Source of the DNA: Naegleria gruberi
Lineage: Eukaryota
Length of the DNA: 4,609 bases
Assembly: GCA_000004985.1 (NCBI GenBank)
Contig: GG739178.1
Strand: one strand, 5' to 3'
The translations under genes and the position numbers were made by a program. This document shows, one piece after another, positions 1 to 4,609 of the stretch. Numbering within the stretch: the stretch's first letter is position 1; each line of letters opens with the position of its first letter. The notes beneath the pieces were generated by a model. It had not been told where the DNA came from. It was given only the letters and a program-made list of their open reading frames with translations, and did not search any database.

Positions 1-115
1 TGTCTGGAATATTTCTAGCAAAGTCGTCAATCAATTCATAATTCTTGTGTGATAGATAATAGTCTGGATCGGCAGAGAAAGGTTCAACGTTGGAATTTTT
101 GCTCTTCTTAACCAT
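1..115 (-). CDS. 5' end (start codon plus first 38 codons) of a transglutaminase-like (TGL) domain protein, paralog A. The CDS continues past the left edge of the window.
   Basis: Reverse-complementing 1..115 gives ATG GTT AAG AAG AGC ..., translating to MVKKSKNSNVEPFSADPDYYLSHKNYELIDDFARNIPD. This aligns with the N-terminus of the gene at 2936 (…KKVSLTGAPFSSDAEYYKTLRNYELADAHARNAPKD). Shared residues are KK, PFS-D, YY, NYEL, ARN-P-D, roughly 45% identity. The start context CACAAAATGG has A at -3 and G at +4. The ORF is open to the window edge. Confidence 0.55.
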   Translation of the reverse strand, partial: MVKKSKNSNVEPFSADPDYYLSHKNYELIDDFARNIPD

Positions 116-282
116 TTTGTGTTGATTTAGTTGATTTTGTTTTTTTGTTATATGTAAAATCAGAGGATGCTTCTACACTGTAAATATGAATGATTGAGCA
201 AGTTCCAAGGTTTGGATTGTTGTAAAATATTGAGGGTTCATTCCTCATAAACGTTCTATTAAGGTGGGCATGTTAAACTTTT

Positions 283-290
283 ATAAATAA
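283..290. promoter_or_regulatory. TATAAATA element, a candidate TATA box in the divergent intergenic region between paralog A (ATG at 115, minus strand) and the His-rich gene (ATG at 679, plus strand).
   Basis: The plus strand reads TATAAATA at 283..290, about 170 bp upstream of the minus-strand ATG at 115. The call rests on sequence pattern only. Confidence 0.2.
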
Positions 291-313
291 CTACAAATTA
301 GAAAAATAGCTCA

Positions 314-337
314 ATTTCTGAAAATCACCAAATGGGT
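314..337 (+). promoter_or_regulatory. Copy 1 of the 24-bp motif ATTTCTGAAAATCACCAAATGGGT, a candidate shared cis-element or short repeat family.
   Basis: It matches copy 2 (374..397) at 21 of 24 positions, 60 bp downstream in the same orientation. It also matches the inverted copy at 3305..3327. It sits 200-285 bp upstream of the paralog A start codon. Confidence 0.45.
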
Positions 338-373
338 ATGTTGTAAAATGTGCCCCGAAAAAGCTTTGCAAAT

Positions 374-397
374 ATTTCTGAATTTCACCAAATTGGT
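374..397 (+). promoter_or_regulatory. Copy 2 of the motif: ATTTCTGAATTTCACCAAATTGGT.
   Basis: It is a direct repeat of 314..337. The 13-nt core TCACCAAATTGGT is identical to the reverse complement of 3305..3317. Confidence 0.45.
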
Positions 398-466
398 GTT
401 CAGTTCGCAAGTTCTTCTTAGTTCATTCATTGCCTTAATATCCTTGTATCCAAAACAACAATTTTG

Positions 467-474
467 TATATAAA
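467..474 (+). promoter_or_regulatory. TATATAAA, a candidate TATA box for the plus-strand His-rich gene.
   Basis: It is a perfect TATATAAA, about 205 bp upstream of the ATG at 679. That distance is long, so it would imply a 5' leader of roughly 100-170 nt or an intron in the leader. Confidence 0.3.
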
Positions 475-678
475 TTTGTAGATATTTTCCAAGTCTCAAC
501 AGAAAAATCTTATTTTGAAACTTTCAAAATTAGAGAAATTAGAAGAGAGAAAGGCACAGGAACAGTAAACAACAAGATATTTACAAACCAGAGTCAACTT
601 GATGTTCAATGAACAATATTGGAAACGTATTTGAGAATGATTGTATAACTGATCAACAGCAATAATACAATTAAAAAA

Positions 679-846
679 ATGTCTGAACAACCAACTCAAC
701 CAGTCCAACCACAAGGTGAAGAACATAAGGAAAAGAGATGTGCCAAGCACGTTCATGGTGAAGAACACAAGCACGAAGGTGAACACGTTCATTGCAGCAA
801 GCACGTTCACGAACATGAAGTCAAGCCAGAATCTGATATGGAATAA
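679..846 (+). CDS. Small (55 aa) histidine-rich, Glu/Lys-rich protein, a putative metal-binding peptide. Translation: MSEQPTQPVQPQGEEHKEKRCAKHVHGEEHKHEGEHVHCSKHVHEHEVKPESDME.
   Basis: The ORF runs ATG(679) to TAA(844..846). It is the first ATG after an in-frame stop at 646..648. The context AAAAAAATGTCT is the classic highly-expressed fungal start context. Codon choice is strongly biased (CCA, CAA, GAA, AAG, GGT, GTT, CAC, TCT), unlike the antisense frame. The protein has 10 His in 55 residues, arranged as repeated KHVH / EEH / EH units, plus 2 Cys. AATAAA hexamers sit at the stop (842..847) and at 867..872. The six-frame track missed it because of its length. Confidence 0.6.
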   Translation: MSEQPTQPVQPQGEEHKEKRCAKHVHGEEHKHEGEHVHCSKHVHEHEVKPESDME

Positions 847-866
847 ATTTCATTACTATTAAGCTT

Positions 867-872
867 AATAAA
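867..872 (+). terminator. AATAAA polyadenylation-signal-like hexamer downstream of the His-rich CDS.
   Basis: AATAAA lies 21 nt after the TAA stop. A second AATAAA overlaps the stop itself (842..847). Confidence 0.3.
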
Positions 873-934
873 TCAGTACTTGATCGACTTTCATATTTCC
901 TATTTGTTGGTATCTATCCATCATTAATCTTATT

Positions 935-2337
935 NNNNNNNNNNNNNNNNNNNNNNNNNNNNNNNNNNNNNNNNNNNNNNNNNNNNNNNNNNNNNNNNNN
1001 NNNNNNNNNNNNNNNNNNNNNNNNNNNNNNNNNNNNNNNNNNNNNNNNNNNNNNNNNNNNNNNNNNNNNNNNNNNNNNNNNNNNNNNNNNNNNNNNNNNN
1101 NNNNNNNNNNNNNNNNNNNNNNNNNNNNNNNNNNNNNNNNNNNNNNNNNNNNNNNNNNNNNNNNNNNNNNNNNNNNNNNNNNNNNNNNNNNNNNNNNNNN
1201 NNNNNNNNNNNNNNNNNNNNNNNNNNNNNNNNNNNNNNNNNNNNNNNNNNNNNNNNNNNNNNNNNNNNNNNNNNNNNNNNNNNNNNNNNNNNNNNNNNNN
1301 NNNNNNNNNNNNNNNNNNNNNNNNNNNNNNNNNNNNNNNNNNNNNNNNNNNNNNNNNNNNNNNNNNNNNNNNNNNNNNNNNNNNNNNNNNNNNNNNNNNN
1401 NNNNNNNNNNNNNNNNNNNNNNNNNNNNNNNNNNNNNNNNNNNNNNNNNNNNNNNNNNNNNNNNNNNNNNNNNNNNNNNNNNNNNNNNNNNNNNNNNNNN
1501 NNNNNNNNNNNNNNNNNNNNNNNNNNNNNNNNNNNNNNNNNNNNNNNNNNNNNNNNNNNNNNNNNNNNNNNNNNNNNNNNNNNNNNNNNNNNNNNNNNNN
1601 NNNNNNNNNNNNNNNNNNNNNNNNNNNNNNNNNNNNNNNNNNNNNNNNNNNNNNNNNNNNNNNNNNNNNNNNNNNNNNNNNNNNNNNNNNNNNNNNNNNN
1701 NNNNNNNNNNNNNNNNNNNNNNNNNNNNNNNNNNNNNNNNNNNNNNNNNNNNNNNNNNNNNNNNNNNNNNNNNNNNNNNNNNNNNNNNNNNNNNNNNNNN
1801 NNNNNNNNNNNNNNNNNNNNNNNNNNNNNNNNNNNNNNNNNNNNNNNNNNNNNNNNNNNNNNNNNNNNNNNNNNNNNNNNNNNNNNNNNNNNNNNNNNNN
1901 NNNNNNNNNNNNNNNNNNNNNNNNNNNNNNNNNNNNNNNNNNNNNNNNNNNNNNNNNNNNNNNNNNNNNNNNNNNNNNNNNNNNNNNNNNNNNNNNNNNN
2001 NNNNNNNNNNNNNNNNNNNNNNNNNNNNNNNNNNNNNNNNNNNNNNNNNNNNNNNNNNNNNNNNNNNNNNNNNNNNNNNNNNNNNNNNNNNNNNNNNNNN
2101 NNNNNNNNNNNNNNNNNNNNNNNNNNNNNNNNNNNNNNNNNNNNNNNNNNNNNNNNNNNNNNNNNNNNNNNNNNNNNNNNNNNNNNNNNNNNNNNNNNNN
2201 NNNNNNNNNNNNNNNNNNNNNNNNNNNNNNNNNNNNNNNNNNNNNNNNNNNNNNNNNNNNNNNNNNNNNNNNNNNNNNNNNNNNNNNNNNNNNNNNNNNN
2301 NNNNNNNNNNNNNNNNNNNNNNNNNNNNNNNNNNNNN
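935..2337. other. Assembly or scaffold gap: a run of 1,403 N.
   Basis: N characters run uninterrupted from 935 to 2337. The 3' portion of the TGL paralog B gene, which runs leftward on the minus strand from 2338, is lost in it. Confidence 0.99.
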
Positions 2338-2492
2338 TACATCAACAAATCTGAGAGTACCATCATCAATTTCAATGGCATTATACTCGTGATCAGGAGT
2401 AAAATTGAATTCCTCAAATGGGTCAATTTCTGGCCCACGTCCTTTTCCTGCAATACGGAAAACATTTGGAACACCAGCTTGCTTTAAGAGAC
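2338..2492 (-). CDS. Exon 2 (partial, truncated by the N gap) of TGL-domain protein paralog B. It encodes (G)LLKQAGVPNVFRIAGKGRGPEIDPFEEFNFTPDHEYNAIEIDDGTLRFVDV.
   Basis: After the intron is removed, the frame continues from exon 1 as GAA G|GT CTC TTA AAG CAA GCT. It is open for 51 codons up to the N run. It carries the TGL LLKxAGIPAR-like segment (LLKQAGVPNVFR). It also carries the predicted catalytic His (DHEYN, about 43 residues after the Cys) and Asp (RFVDV, 16 residues after the His), matching the Cys-His-Asp spacing of the transglutaminase-like superfamily. Confidence 0.6.
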
Positions 2493-2539
2493 CTTATATA
2501 AATTTGCCTAAGATTCCATAGTGGAATAGAAGTACTTAC
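2493..2539 (-). other. Spliceosomal intron (47 nt, phase 1) in TGL paralog B. Donor is GTAAGT, acceptor is TATAAG|G.
   Basis: The minus-strand sequence reads GAAG|gtaagtacttctattccactatggaatcttaggcaaatttatataag|GTCTCTTAAAG. Unspliced read-through ends in GKYFYSTMES*, a stop inside the intron. Splicing at this acceptor restores the conserved motif GVCxxFAxLFxxLLKxAG. A 62-nt alternative with an acceptor at 2478 is also in frame but deletes LLKQ. Confidence 0.5.
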
Positions 2540-2936
2540 CTTCGAATAATCCAGCAAAACCAGTACAAACACAGGTCTTCAAGTAGAAAGCACAGAGAGC
2601 AAAATCATTATAGATCTTTTTTTCTTCTTCACTAAAGGATGGTCCCATAACTTCAGCATTATACTTTGGAAGAGTGTGATTCTTTCTATTAACCTTGTCA
2701 TAGGTAAGATTCAAGCAGAGCCAAACATAGACAGATCTGGCCTTTTCTTCAATATTATCAAAAGGGCTACAAAGATACTTGGAAGTTTCAGTGAGGGTTG
2801 GAATATCCTTTGGTGCATTTCTAGCATGAGCATCAGCAAGTTCGTAATTTCTCAAGGTTTTATAATATTCGGCATCAGAACTGAATGGGGCACCAGTAAG
2901 CGAGACCTTTTTGAATTTTGGAACAATGTCGGACAT
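2540..2936 (-). CDS. Exon 1 of TGL-domain protein paralog B (start codon at 2936..2934): a putative cysteine protease or transglutaminase-fold enzyme.
   Basis: The track ORF 2508..2936(-) starts MSDIVPKFKK…. It contains …EEKARSVYVWLCLNLTYD… (the TGL pre-core motif, AxxIYxWVxxNIxYD-like). It also contains …TCVCTGFAGLFEG (the GVCxxFAxLF catalytic-Cys motif). The start context is AAAAAAAAAATCAACAACAACAACC-ATG-TCC, with A at -3. The exon ends at a GTAAGT donor. Confidence 0.75.
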
Positions 2937-2937
2937 G

Positions 2938-2961
2938 GTTGTTGTTGTTGATTTTTTTTTT
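2938..2961 (-). repeat. Simple-sequence 5' leader immediately upstream of the paralog B ATG: A10 followed by (CAA)4 on the minus strand, which is (GTT)4..T10 on the plus strand.
   Basis: The plus strand reads GTTGTTGTTGTTGATTTTTTTTTT. On the coding (minus) strand this is AAAAAAAAAATCAACAACAACAAC directly abutting the ATG. Confidence 0.5.
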
Positions 2962-3304
2962 AAATTTTAATCCAAGAAATCAACCAAGGCATTAAGATTC
3001 TATTTAAGAACCATAGAAACATTTCAAAATCATCCAAAATTCTAGAAAGAAAATAACATGTCCATAGGGTTACATAATATGAAACAACTTGATGGAATAT
3101 CGTGGCAATCTGCAGAGTGTATAACATTTCTTGTGAGCGTGGAATTAAGGCCATGCAAAATTAACGTGTGAACTAGCTTTGAAACGTAAGGCTTCATTTC
3201 AAAAAGGTGTTTGGACAATAAAGATTAATTAATGCATGTGGTTGTTGATATGGACACAAAATTATTAAGGCAATGAAAGAACTTTGGAACAATAGGGAAA
3301 AAAA

Positions 3305-3327
3305 ACCAATTTGGTGAATCCAGAAAT
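3305..3327 (-). promoter_or_regulatory. Inverted copy 3 of the motif. The reverse complement is ATTTCTGGATTCACCAAATTGGT. It lies in the paralog B promoter.
   Basis: The plus strand reads ACCAATTTGGTGAATCCAGAAAT. Its reverse complement matches copy 2 (374..397) with one 1-nt deletion and one substitution, and the 13-nt core is identical. It sits about 370-390 bp upstream of the paralog B ATG (2936, minus strand). Confidence 0.45.
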
Positions 3328-3958
3328 ATATACTTCAGAGCTAATTTGGGGCTACAACAAACTCTCTATGGAGAACGCAGCAACATGTGGAATGGTTGAA
3401 GAGAGGCCTTTGTCTGTGTGTTATTTTGCATTAATATCACTATGACCACTATCAAAGAAGACAATTTAGGATATTGGCAAATTGATGGAATGTAAAGCAA
3501 AATATGTTGATAATGGTGATAGTAAATTCACACATTGTTTCCCGACTATCATCCACACTAAAAGTTCTACAATTAAAACTGATGGAAAATGTTGGTGGTG
3601 AATGATCCGATTATGATAATATGAAAAATAAATTCCAATTTCATGATTATCATCCTAAAACTAATAAAAATTACTATTATTACTACGAAGCAATTTATAT
3701 TTATAAAAAATCATCACATACTAGTAAACAACAATTCATGAGTATTTTTAATATTATGTGATAGATTTTTGAAACACAATTATTATTATTACTTTCAATA
3801 TCTTCGTATCTTCGTTGTCAAAATTCAAAAACAAAAAAATATTGAGGGCAATCATGTAAATACTCCTCGGAACCTCCAGTAATTTCAAAGGAGTAACATC
3901 ATTTAATTGCTGGATAAATTTCATCATCATCAACTAATCAAGTTTTCAAAATCAAAAA

Positions 3959-3964
3959 TTTATT
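3959..3964 (-). terminator. AATAAA hexamer on the minus strand directly abutting the TAG stop of the EGF-repeat gene.
   Basis: The minus strand reads …ATT AAT TAG AATAAA TTTTTG…. The hexamer follows the stop codon with no spacer. Confidence 0.3.
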
Positions 3965-4609
3965 CTAATTAATTATAAAGATCACCAACAAGCTTGTAAT
4001 GAACACAAACAAGGCATGATAAACTCCCAAACCAGATACAAATGTTGATCCGGATACAACATATTGTTCACATCCTTTTCCAAAATATCCGACAGCACAG
4101 CTACAGGCACCAGAGACACAATTACCATGTCCATTACAAACAGTATTGTTGCTTGATGAAATTCCATTACAATATGTAATATCACACCAAGATCCTTCAG
4201 CATGGGAAGCACATGAACAAATGTTAGGTGCTGTACAATTACCATTTCCAGAGCAAACAACAGTTGAATTTGAGAAGAGAATTCCATTGCAAGTGTATTG
4301 CTCACAATTGGATCCACTATATCCTGCACGACATTCACAAGTATCGACATTGGTACAATTACCACGTGCTGAGCAAGAGTTTGGATTGTTATTGGCAACA
4401 CCAAAACAAGTACGAAGTTCACAATCACTTCCTGTATAACCAGATTTACATTCACAAACATTGAGTGATTTGCATGTACCATGTCTAGAACATACAGAGC
4501 TATTGTTATTGGCAATGCCAAAACATGACCATTGATTGTCGGCATTATTAGTATTATTAGTATTACCAGAATTGGTACCATTGTTACTATTATTAGTATT
4601 GTACTGTAT
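3965..4609 (-). CDS. 3' portion (214 codons plus stop) of a secreted or surface protein with four tandem EGF-like modules. It has an N-terminal Asn-rich low-complexity linker, EGF/tenascin-type 6-Cys repeats, and a C-terminal hydrophobic tail (likely a GPI-anchor signal or TM). The gene continues beyond the right edge.
   Basis: The reverse complement in frame 1 from 4609 gives IQYNTNNSNNGTNSGNTNNTNNADNQW-SCFGIANNNSSVCSRHGTCKSLNVCECKSGYTGSDCELRT-CFGVANNNPNSCSARGNCTNVDTCECRAGYSGSNCEQYT-CNGILFSNSTVVCSGNGNCTAPNICSCASHAEGSWCDITY-CNGISSSNNTVCNGHGNCVSGACSCAVGYFGKGCEQYV-VSGSTFVSGLGVYHALFVFITSLLVIFIIN*. It is open all the way to the window edge. There are four ~39-aa modules with the pattern C-x9-10-C-x4-5-C-x3-5-C-x-C-x8-C, ending in GY-x-G-x-x-C-E. 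Several N-x-S/T sequons are present. The final 19 residues are hydrophobic, preceded by a small-residue stretch (SGS), which is GPI-omega-like. The stop TAG is at 3967..3965. The track ORFs over this span are other frames or the antisense strand of the same DNA. Confidence 0.75.
   Translation of the reverse strand: MQYNTNNSNNGTNSGNTNNTNNADNQWSCFGIANNNSSVCSRHGTCKSLNVCECKSGYTGSDCELRTCFGVANNNPNSCSARGNCTNVDTCECRAGYSGSNCEQYTCNGILFSNSTVVCSGNGNCTAPNICSCASHAEGSWCDITYCNGISSSNNTVCNGHGNCVSGACSCAVGYFGKGCEQYVVSGSTFVSGLGVYHALFVFITSLLVIFIIN

What the first reader, a model, noticed from the sequence alone, without database searches (positions are those of the whole stretch)
1..2936. Duplicated transglutaminase-like (Cys-His-Asp) genes in the same orientation flank the His-rich gene, and paralog B retains a complete catalytic triad.
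The two minus-strand genes (ATGs at 115 and 2936) have clearly homologous but diverged N-termini, about 45% identity over 36 residues. Paralog B carries the TGL superfamily signature elements. The AxxVYxWLxxNLxYD pre-core and the catalytic-Cys motif CVCTGFAGLF, at about Cys124, are in exon 1. Exon 2 adds LLKQAGVPNVFRIAG, the GIPAR-like segment, then DHEYN (His ~167) and RFVDV (Asp ~183), with canonical C-to-H of about 43 and H-to-D of about 16 spacing. An intact triad suggests an active protease or transglutaminase-fold enzyme, not a degenerate scaffold such as the budding-yeast Cyk3 TGL domain. A tandem arrangement with a small metal-binding-like gene between the two copies is unusual local organisation.
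Basis: partly seen in the sequence, partly recalled or inferred. Interest (0 to 1): 0.5.

Follow-up and report, generated by a model that had tools for sequence, protein, structure and literature searches.

The report
Partial KY-like transglutaminase-fold gene pair, Naegleria
This small Naegleria gruberi scaffold carries the first 184 codons of an ordinary KY-type transglutaminase-like (papain-fold) gene with an intact Cys-His-Asp triad, plus the first 38 codons of a second related copy; the reading is correct but the family is already known, also in this genome.

Summary
The window is a 4609-nt Naegleria gruberi scaffold with a 1403-N gap at 935-2337.

**Gene B.** On the minus strand, gene B has exon 1 at 2936-2540, a 47-nt GTAAGT..AG intron at 2539-2493, and exon 2 at 2492-2338, which runs into the gap. 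The 184 spliced residues place C124, H167 and D183 in the Cys, His and Asp/Glu columns of 39 homologues. These columns are conserved in 40/40, 38/38 and 39/39 sequences.

**Family.** The homologues pass Pfam PF01841, and several also carry the KY-type Ig-like domain. The closest is the unlinked N. gruberi paralogue XP_002671414 (E 4e-23). Its AF2 model best matches Chlamydomonas central-pair protein FAP246 and S. pyogenes TglA.

**Gene A.** Only 38 codons lie in the window (115-2). Its homology to B is real (15/26 identical, 0/2000 shuffles), but its enzyme core is off-scaffold.

**What is not supported.** An intact triad does not prove activity: vertebrate KY keeps its triad and has no demonstrated activity. 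The "unusual organisation" claim has no support, and A and B look like old copies.

**Extras.**
- The His-rich ORF looks like a real orphan gene.
- A 145-nt non-coding element lies upstream of both B and the His-rich gene, in inverted copies.

The finding is a new member of a known kind, of low interest.

The parts
1..115 (-). Gene A, 5' end only: ATG at 115, 38 codons, running off the left end of the scaffold. It is the N-terminal 'PFxxDxxYYxxxxNYExxDxxARNxP' region of a KY-like TGL paralogue. The catalytic core is not in the window.
   Evidence: Translation. BLASTP against B gives 15/26 identical, E 5e-9. There is an in-frame stop upstream with no earlier ATG.
352..492 (+). Copy 1 of a non-coding element of about 145 nt. 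It lies 187 nt upstream of the His-rich ATG and contains the palindrome CACCAAATTGGTG at 386-398. A partial tandem copy lies at 314-337.
   Evidence: the repeat finder I1, I2, I4 and D4. Alignment. blastn gives 69% over 144 nt, E 1e-16, minus orientation. No Rfam or tRNA hit.
679..846 (+). His-rich ORF of 55 aa (10 His, 12 Glu, 2 Cys) with an internal repeat GEEHK..C[AS]KHVH. It is probably a real orphan gene, convergent with gene B.
   Evidence: ORF. Codon use is entirely the locally preferred set (AAG 6/0, GAA 12/0, CCA 4/0, GGT 3/0, CAA 4/0), and GC is 44% against 29% intergenic. No Pfam hit. The exact sequence is not in the protein collection, and no homologue was found.
935..2337 (.). Scaffold gap of 1403 N. 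It must hold the 3' half of gene B: about 260 codons if B resembles the 443-aa paralogue P0046.
   Evidence: Gap. Paralogue length.
2338..2492 (-). Gene B exon 2, residues 133(part)-184. His167 codon is 2391-2389 and Asp183 codon is 2343-2341. The exon is cut by the gap one codon after the Asp.
   Evidence: Exon 2 alone matches P0003 residues 139-186. The His and Asp columns are conserved.
2493..2539 (-). Gene B intron, 47 nt, GTAAGT...AG, phase 1.
   Evidence: Reading through gives stops. Both exons are colinear with the intronless paralogue gene in L001.
2540..2936 (-). Gene B exon 1, residues 1-133(part): the N-terminal KY-like region, the W72/Y79/D80 motif and the catalytic-Cys motif CVCTGFAGLF. 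Cys124 codon is 2567-2565.
   Evidence: phmmer against 1.84 billion representatives gives 31 hits. The Cys column is 40/40. The existing database model P0001 (142 aa) reads through the intron.
3211..3352 (-). Copy 2 of the ~145-nt element, inverted relative to copy 1. It lies 275 nt upstream of the gene B ATG, so it has the same polarity towards B as copy 1 has towards the His-rich gene.

Best explanation
Gene B is the 5' 40% or so of a cytosolic KY-type transglutaminase-like (TGL, papain-fold) protein of Naegleria gruberi. It is one of at least five paralogues in that genome: A, B, XP_002671414, XP_002677361 and XP_002678577.

**Shown.**
- It has a canonical short intron.
- The family's N-terminal helices are present.
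- The full Cys124-His167-Asp183 triad is in the family's conserved positions.

**Inferred.**
- The missing 3' half in the gap encodes the rest of the core plus a KY-type Ig-like domain, as in the 443-aa paralogue.
- The protein has no signal peptide, unlike its bacterial relatives, so it probably acts in the cytosol. This comes from my reading of the N-termini, not from a predictor.
- It most likely acts as a thiol enzyme. Cys124, activated by His167 and Asp183, would attack a peptide or glutamine amide on a protein substrate, giving peptidase, deamidase or transglutaminase chemistry. The substrate would probably be on a cytoskeletal or flagellar structure, by analogy with KY (Z-disc), Cyk3 (division ring) and FAP246 (central-pair C1b).

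Gene A is the start of another old paralogue. The two copies and the interposed His-rich gene are ordinary neighbours, not a functional unit.

The confidence of 0.8 is for the family assignment, the gene structure and the ordinary-neighbours reading. For the sub-claim that the protein is catalytically active I put only about 0.5-0.6.
For: **Organism and existing model.** A 100% match to an N. gruberi 'predicted protein' on a 4609-nt contig.

**Family.**
- An exhaustive phmmer with exon 1 finds N. gruberi paralogues P0003 (E 4e-23) and P0004 (E 6e-15), plus 27 further TGL proteins.
- All 10 homologues tested pass the PF01841 gathering score. P0005 passes PF23265 Ig-like_KY there, and P0049 passes it.
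- Full spliced B against P0003 scores 130 bits, compared with 98 bits for exon 1 alone.

**Triad.** The Cys column is 40/40, the His column 38/38, and the Asp column 33 D plus 6 E. The unusual 'DHEYN' form of the His motif recurs in P0049.

**Fold, tested on paralogue P0003 (core pLDDT about 90).**
- Foldseek: FAP246 E 1e-13.
- Profile against PDB sequences: 9crn_A 5e-16, FAP246 6e-13.

**Literature.** Active TGL domains are peptidases, PNGases, transglutaminases or deamidases. Inactive ones, such as Rad4 and Cyk3, bind peptides (PMC3495828).
Against: - The direct Pfam score of the B fragment is below the curated cut-off: 18.0 against 23 bits.
- Enzymatic activity is inferred only. KY keeps its triad yet no activity has been shown, and a protein-binding role has been proposed (PMC6078408).
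- Six relatives have Glu instead of Asp.
- The C-terminal architecture of B is unseen because it lies in the gap.
- No expression or localisation data were found for any Naegleria paralogue.
Confidence: 0.8

Rival explanations
1. B is a KY-like TGL domain that works as a non-catalytic protein-binding module despite its intact triad, as proposed for vertebrate KY and shown for Cyk3.
For: - KY has conserved catalytic residues but no demonstrated activity, and co-option for protein-protein interaction has been proposed (PMC6078408).
- The Cyk3 TGL domain is essential without a catalytic Cys (PMC3386208).
- The best structural relative, FAP246, is a structural component of the central-pair C1b projection (bioRxiv 10.1101/2021.06.16.448709).
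Against: - The Cys is invariant in all 40 family members aligned, and the His in all 38 with sequence there. That is what purifying selection on catalysis predicts.
- Inactive TGL lineages such as Cyk3, band 4.2 and Rad4 typically lose triad residues (PMC3386208, PMC3495828).
Confidence: 0.3
2. A and B are a recent local tandem duplication that forms a functional cluster with the His-rich gene, for example a metal-binding partner of the thiol enzyme.
For: - Both genes lie on the minus strand of one scaffold, with start codons 2.8 kb apart.
- Direct DNA similarity extends about 90 nt upstream of both ATGs: 11-208 against 2817-3028.
- Copies of the same ~145-nt element lie upstream of B and of the His-rich gene with the same polarity.
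Against: - The A/B DNA similarity is only 58%.
- The B N-terminus is closer to unlinked P0003 (score 99) than to A (score 82).
- The P0003-type paralogue in L001 has a Ras/Roc GTPase neighbour, with no tandem TGL gene, no His-rich ORF and no element.
- The His-rich ORF has no homologue anywhere, so no conserved linkage can be shown.
- Order and orientation across the gap rest on an unverified scaffold join.
Confidence: 0.1
3. Gene B, or the whole small scaffold, is a pseudogene remnant or an assembly artefact such as an unplaced haplotype or repeat scrap, not a working gene.
For: - The scaffold is only 4.6 kb, with 30% Ns.
- The only database model is a 142-aa read-through fragment.
- No gene position is on record for it.
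Against: - The reading frame is open across 184 codons and needs only one canonical in-frame intron.
- All family-invariant residues (W72, Y79, C124, H167) are kept.
- Codon use matches the neighbouring genes.
- The sequence is unique at the protein level, a cluster of one member, so it is not a duplicate of a placed gene.
Confidence: 0.07

Closest known systems
KY (kyphoscoliosis peptidase)-type transglutaminase-like proteins: Pfam PF01841 core followed by PF23265 Ig-like_KY
   Same: - Same core motifs: W..N..YD, then C-x-G-[YF]-[AS]-x-L-F, then H-[AE]-[WY]-N, then x-[LIV]-D/E-x-[TC]-W-G.
- An intact Cys-His-Asp triad.
- Relatives P0005 and P0049 pass PF23265. The nearest full-length paralogue P0046 hits it weakly, 21 against 27 bits.
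- The paralogue's C-terminal half matches filamin-type Ig domains structurally.
   Different: - B's own C-terminal half is unseen.
- The Naegleria proteins are short (about 440 aa) and have a lineage-specific insert (B residues 81-120) shared by P0003 and P0004.
- Vertebrate KY itself was not aligned here. The link is through the Pfam family that bears its name.
Fungal Cyk3 (SH3 + inactive TGL domain, cytokinesis)
   Same: Same TGL superfamily and cytosolic. The His and Asp of the triad are retained in both.
   Different: - Cyk3 lacks the catalytic Cys and is considered non-enzymatic (PMC3386208). B has it.
- B has no SH3 domain at its N-terminus.
Chlamydomonas FAP246 / mammalian LRGUK-1 (ciliary central-pair C1b protein; PDB 7n6g chain 6E, 7sqc chain X0)
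   Same: - The profile match is E 6e-13.
- Naegleria also builds 9+2 flagella (my background knowledge).
   Different: - FAP246 is a 1138-residue protein with LRRs, a guanylate-kinase-like region and EF hands (PMC11244166; bioRxiv 10.1101/2021.06.16.448709).
- No such domains were found in the Naegleria paralogues.
- The profile alignment to FAP246 starts after the Cys motif, so its Cys status was not established here.
Bacterial secreted TGL proteins: S. pyogenes TglA (9crn) and the Cytophaga hutchinsonii putative cysteine protease (3isr)
   Same: - Most of the sequence hits appear to be signal-peptide-bearing proteins. One is named as Bacteroidota.
   Different: - The bacterial proteins carry signal peptides, whereas B starts MSDIVPKFKK with no hydrophobic leader. 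This is my reading of the sequences, not a predictor result.
- No published function for TglA was found.
Animal transglutaminases (factor XIII, TG2, TG3)
   Different: - No transglutaminase N- or C-terminal beta domains.
- Much shorter Cys-to-His and His-to-Asp spacing than in the animal enzymes (PMC3386208, Fig. 1 legend).
- Only a distant relationship.

Membership tests
Transglutaminase-like superfamily (Pfam PF01841, papain-like fold) | Match to the PF01841 profile at or above the curated gathering score (23 bits) | tested here: inconclusive
   The B fragment scores 18.0 bits, E 0.0035, covering profile positions 12-71 only. The fragment ends one residue after the Asp and carries a 40-residue insert. 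Homologues found with B all pass: P0003 24.5, P0032 47.5, P0005 50.7, P0011 59 bits.
Transglutaminase-like superfamily (Pfam PF01841, papain-like fold) | Cys, His and Asp/Glu in that order in the conserved motif columns | tested here: met
   C124 sits in a 40/40 Cys column and H167 in a 38/38 His column. D183 sits in a column with 33 D and 6 E.
Transglutaminase-like superfamily (Pfam PF01841, papain-like fold) | Papain-like alpha+beta fold, with the Cys on a helix and the His and Asp on successive strands | tested here: inconclusive
   [not shown]
KY-type TGL proteins (PF01841 + PF23265) | C-terminal KY-like Ig domain (PF23265) | not testable with these tools
   This part of B lies in the 935-2337 gap. 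Among relatives, P0005 scores 35.5 and P0049 33.7 bits (both pass the cut-off of 27), P0026 26.0, P0048 22.4 and P0046 21.1 bits (all below it).
Fungal Cyk3 | N-terminal SH3 domain and a TGL domain that lacks the catalytic Cys | tested here: not met
   No SH3 hit in B, and B has the Cys. The Cyk3 features are taken from PMC3386208.
FAP246 / LRGUK central-pair proteins | LRR plus guanylate-kinase-like and EF-hand regions around the TGL module | tested here: not met
   Pfam finds only TGL and Ig-like_KY domains in B, P0003 and P0046. The resemblance is limited to the TGL + Ig module.
Animal transglutaminases (EC 2.3.2.13) | Transglut_N and Transglut_C beta domains flanking the core | tested here: not met
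   No such Pfam hits in B or its paralogues.
Gene A as a TGL gene | Presence of a TGL core with a triad | not testable with these tools
   Only 38 N-terminal residues lie in the window. No full-length A appears in either protein library (reasoned). The 38-aa query is too short for the locus search.

The most novel reading that the evidence does not exclude
The Naegleria KY-like paralogues, B included, could be active cytosolic thiol enzymes that modify cytoskeletal or flagellar central-apparatus proteins. That would be the first catalytic KY-type TGL in a eukaryote. The ~145-nt element, with its CACCAA(A/T)TTGGTG palindrome, lies upstream of both B and the orphan His-rich gene with the same polarity. 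It could be a shared cis-regulatory module that co-expresses a metal-binding peptide with the enzyme.
Probability: 0.08. Interest if true: 0.45.

Novelty: new member of a known kind. Interest (0 to 1): 0.15.

Why it matters
**Practical value.** This is mainly an annotation fix.
- The public model for this locus is a 142-aa 'predicted protein' with no domain. It reads through a 47-nt intron and stops.
- The locus is really the 5' part of a KY-type transglutaminase-like gene with an intact triad.
- A second paralogue starts at the scaffold edge.

**Biological value.** This is modest.
- No KY-type TGL protein of a eukaryote has a demonstrated enzymatic activity (PMC6078408).
- An amoeboflagellate has several short, triad-intact paralogues, and their best structural relative is a ciliary central-pair protein.
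- These proteins could therefore be a convenient system to test whether the family is catalytic.
- Nothing in the window shows a new kind of system.

Tried and rejected
1. **Spliced B in the large searches.** Exon 2 was checked separately.
2. **P0002.** This 4333-aa Trypanosoma melophagium protein was hit at E 2e-34 through 22 repeated stretches. Pfam shows it is a coiled-coil repeat protein, so I rejected it as a compositional false positive.
3. **Genomic context of paralogues.** No gene position is on record for P0001 or P0003. Only the 3.4-kb metagenome contig L001 could be read.
4. **JGI metagenome scans.** The scan for relatives of B found nothing. The 38-aa A query was too short.
5. **The ~145-nt element as an RNA gene or coding exon.**
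   - No Rfam or tRNA hit.
   - Folding z-scores disagree between the two copies, -2.8 against +1.7.
   - The indels are not multiples of three.
   - A 21-nt core probe hit two metagenome contigs with no extension beyond the probe, about the chance expectation by my estimate.
   - The element is absent from L001.
6. **His-rich ORF.** No Pfam hit, not in the protein collection, and no homologue.
7. **AFDB Foldseek library.** Unavailable.
8. **Literature.** Nothing found for 9CRN, TglA or the Naegleria locus tags.


Full report
**What the window is.** Protein P0001 matches the longest minus-strand ORF at 100%. It is a 142-aa 'predicted protein' of Naegleria gruberi, and its longest contig is 4609 nt, the window length. 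The window is AT-rich: 33% GC overall and 29% between genes. A run of exactly 1403 N lies at 935-2337. It is therefore a small scaffold made of two contigs, 1-934 and 2338-4609. Their order and orientation rest on a scaffold join that I cannot check.

**Check of the observation.**
- **Gene A.** The minus-strand ATG at 115 is the first ATG after an in-frame stop. It opens 38 codons that run off the left end.
- **Gene B.** The minus-strand ATG at 2936 starts gene B. Read straight through, the frame stops ten codons after ...GLFE. At that point the sequence is G|GTAAGTAC...TATATAAG|GT.
- **Intron.** Removing 47 nt (2539-2493) keeps the frame and gives 184 residues before the gap.
- **Motifs.** The motifs and positions are as stated: ARSVYVWLCLNLTYD at 66, CVCTGFAGLF at 122 (Cys124), LLKQAGVPNVFRIAG at 134, DHEYN at 166 (His167) and RFVDV at 180 (Asp183). 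The spacings are 43 and 16.
- **A against B.** The N-termini share 15/26 identities (BLASTP E 5e-9). None of 2000 shuffles of A reaches that score.

**Is the splice real?** Two independent checks say yes.
- Exon 2 was not used in the large search. On its own it aligns to residues 139-186 of the paralogue P0003, immediately after the stretch (6-133) matched by exon 1. Adding it raises the phmmer score against P0003 from 98 to 130 bits.
- At DNA level both exons are colinear with the intronless paralogue gene on metagenome contig L001. The window carries about 47 extra bases between them.

The public model P0001 is therefore a read-through truncation.

**What gene B is.**
- **Direct Pfam test.** The scan of the fragment is sub-threshold: PF01841 scores 18.0 bits against a cut-off of 23, E 0.0035, and covers only the first two-thirds of the profile. 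The fragment ends one residue after the Asp and carries a 40-residue insert.
- **Exhaustive search.** It gave 31 hits at E <= 0.001 among 1.84 billion representatives.
- **Naegleria paralogues.** The best real hits are P0003 = XP_002671414 (393 aa, E 4e-23), P0004 = XP_002677361 (183 aa, E 6e-15) and P0006 = XP_002678577. UniRef already names P0006 a transglutaminase-like domain protein.
- **Other hits.** The rest appear to be mostly bacterial proteins with signal peptides, plus unnamed metagenome sequences. One is named as Bacteroidota.
- **Pfam on the homologues.** All ten homologues scanned pass PF01841. P0005 also passes PF23265, the KY-like Ig domain, and P0049 passes it.
- **A rejected hit.** The 4333-aa Trypanosoma protein at E 2e-34 is a coiled-coil repeat protein and a false positive.

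**The triad.** In a 40-sequence alignment, B's Cys124 lies in a column that is Cys in all 40. His167 lies in a column that is His in all 38 sequences that reach it. Asp183 lies in a column with 33 Asp and 6 Glu. W72 and Y79 are also invariant. The slightly unusual 'DHEYN' His motif recurs exactly in P0049. The claim of a complete triad in canonical positions is therefore supported by homology, not only by motif recall.

**Fold.** B could not be modelled, so I modelled the nearest paralogue P0003 with a 12-row alignment. Mean pLDDT is 72 and the TGL core is about 90. The low-confidence region 242-303 coincides with about 50 residues that the P0003 gene model skips relative to the intronless 443-aa P0046.
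- **Foldseek.** It agrees, with FAP246 at E 1e-13.
- **Sequence profile.** The family profile hits 9crn_A at 5e-16 and FAP246 at 6e-13.
- **FAP246 itself.** It is a C1b central-pair protein with LRRs, a TGL domain and EF hands. Its mammalian homologue is LRGUK-1 (PMC11244166; bioRxiv 10.1101/2021.06.16.448709).

**Mechanism.**
- **Shown.** B has the sequence hallmarks of a TGL thiol active site.
- **Inferred.** Cys124, activated by His167 and Asp183, would attack an amide in a protein substrate. Active TGL domains are peptidases, PNGases, transglutaminases or deamidases, whereas inactive ones such as Rad4 and Cyk3 bind peptides (PMC3495828).
- **Location.** B has no hydrophobic leader, whereas its bacterial relatives do (my reading), so I expect a cytosolic role. 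KY, Cyk3 and FAP246 all act on cytoskeletal assemblies, so a cytoskeletal or flagellar target is the best guess. That guess is analogy only.
- **Caveat on activity.** [quoted passage not shown] The contrast with Cyk3 is correct: fungal Cyk3 proteins keep His and Asp but lack the Cys (PMC3386208).
- **Weighing.** The absolute conservation of Cys and His across 40 relatives favours catalysis. I put an active enzyme at roughly 0.5-0.6 and a scaffold role at about 0.3.

**The 'duplicated genes' and 'unusual organisation' claims.**
- Gene A shows only the N-terminal module. Its homology to the family is real: 15/26 with B, 13/26 with P0003, 17/37 with P0005. That module is seen here only in front of TGL cores, so A is very probably another paralogue. 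Its core and triad are off-scaffold.
- A full-length A does not appear in either protein library. It would have surfaced.
- The copies are old. Direct DNA similarity (11-208 against 2817-3028) is 58%. In the comparable region B scores higher against unlinked P0003 (99) than against A (82).
- The one other paralogue locus I could read, L001, has a Ras/Roc GTPase gene upstream. It has no second TGL gene, no His-rich ORF and no shared element.
- In my judgement, two old paralogues 2.8 kb apart with a small gene between them is not remarkable.

**The His-rich ORF (679-846, +).**
- It has no Pfam hit, is not in the 15-billion-protein collection and has no detectable homologue.
- It still looks like a real gene. 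Every Lys, Glu, Pro, Gly and Gln uses the codon that gene B also prefers: AAG 6/0, GAA 12/0, CCA 4/0, GGT 3/0, CAA 4/0.
- Its GC content is 44% against 29% in the flanks. An AATAAA overlaps the stop codon.
- It contains an internal repeat, GEEHK..C[AS]KHVH.
- 'Metal-binding-like' is a fair guess from composition, nothing more.

**Seen in passing: an inverted non-coding element.**
- **Extent.** Positions 352-492 and 3352-3211 are inverted copies, 69% identical over 144 nt (E 1e-16). That is better conserved than the A/B coding and 5' region.
- **Not a scaffolding artefact.** Each copy lies on the same contig as its neighbouring gene start, so the opposite gene-to-element orientation does not depend on the scaffold join.
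- **Polarity.** Copy 1 points towards the His-rich ATG, 187 nt away. Copy 2 points towards the B ATG, 275 nt away.
- **Palindrome.** The element contains the palindrome CACCAAATTGGTG, with a partial tandem copy at 314-337.
- **Not an RNA gene or coding exon.** It has no Rfam or tRNA match. Folding does not agree between the copies. The indels break any reading frame.
- **Open question.** I could not decide whether it is a shared promoter module or a dispersed repeat, because no Naegleria genome is searchable here. A 21-nt probe gave only two non-extending metagenome hits.

**Also in the window.** The right end (4609-3965, minus strand) is the C-terminus of an unrelated protein. It has four EGF_2 repeats (PF07974, E 9e-17) and a terminal hydrophobic segment.

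**Verdict.** The family assignment and the triad are supported. The activity claim is plausible but unproven, and the 'unusual organisation' claim is not supported. This is a new, mis-modelled member of a known family that is already recognised in the same genome, so interest is low (0.15).

Noticed in passing
window 352-492 (+) and 3211-3352 (-); partial tandem copy 314-337: A ~145-nt non-coding element is present as inverted copies, 69% identical over 144 nt (E 1e-16). That is better conserved than the A/B coding region. Each copy points towards a downstream gene: the His-rich ATG 187 nt away and the gene B ATG 275 nt away. It contains the palindrome CACCAAATTGGTG. It has no Rfam or tRNA hit, no consistent fold and no reading frame. 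It could be a promoter module or a dispersed repeat; this is undecided.
   Followed up: partly
window 679-846 (+): The 55-aa His/Glu-rich ORF has an internal GEEHK..C[AS]KHVH repeat. Its codon bias is very strong (AAG 6/0, GAA 12/0, CCA 4/0), its GC is 44% against 29% in the flanks, and an AATAAA overlaps the stop. It is absent from the protein collection and has no homologue. It is probably an unannotated orphan gene.
   Followed up: yes
window 3965-4609 (-): This is the C-terminal 214 residues of an unrelated gene running off the right end. It starts with an Asn/Thr-rich low-complexity stretch, then has four EGF_2/teneurin-type EGF repeats (PF07974, E 9e-17), and ends in a hydrophobic, probably transmembrane, tail before the stop at 3967-3965.
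   Followed up: partly
P0003 (XP_002671414) against P0046 on L001 1584-2915: The public N. gruberi gene model for the closest paralogue lacks about 50 residues (ISTHGFADG...STGEE) that are present in the intronless 443-aa version on an ENA metagenome contig. The missing stretch lies in the KY-type Ig-like domain and coincides with the low-confidence part of the AF2 model. It is likely a spurious intron in the model. P0004 (183 aa) likewise looks mis-spliced relative to P0032, which restores the His motif.
   Followed up: partly
[not shown]
   Followed up: partly
P0002 (Trypanosoma melophagium, 4333 aa): It scores E 2e-34 against exon 1 through 22 repeated stretches matching only query residues 34-75. 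Pfam shows coiled-coil repeat families only. It is a compositional false positive that would mislead an automated homology list.
   Followed up: yes
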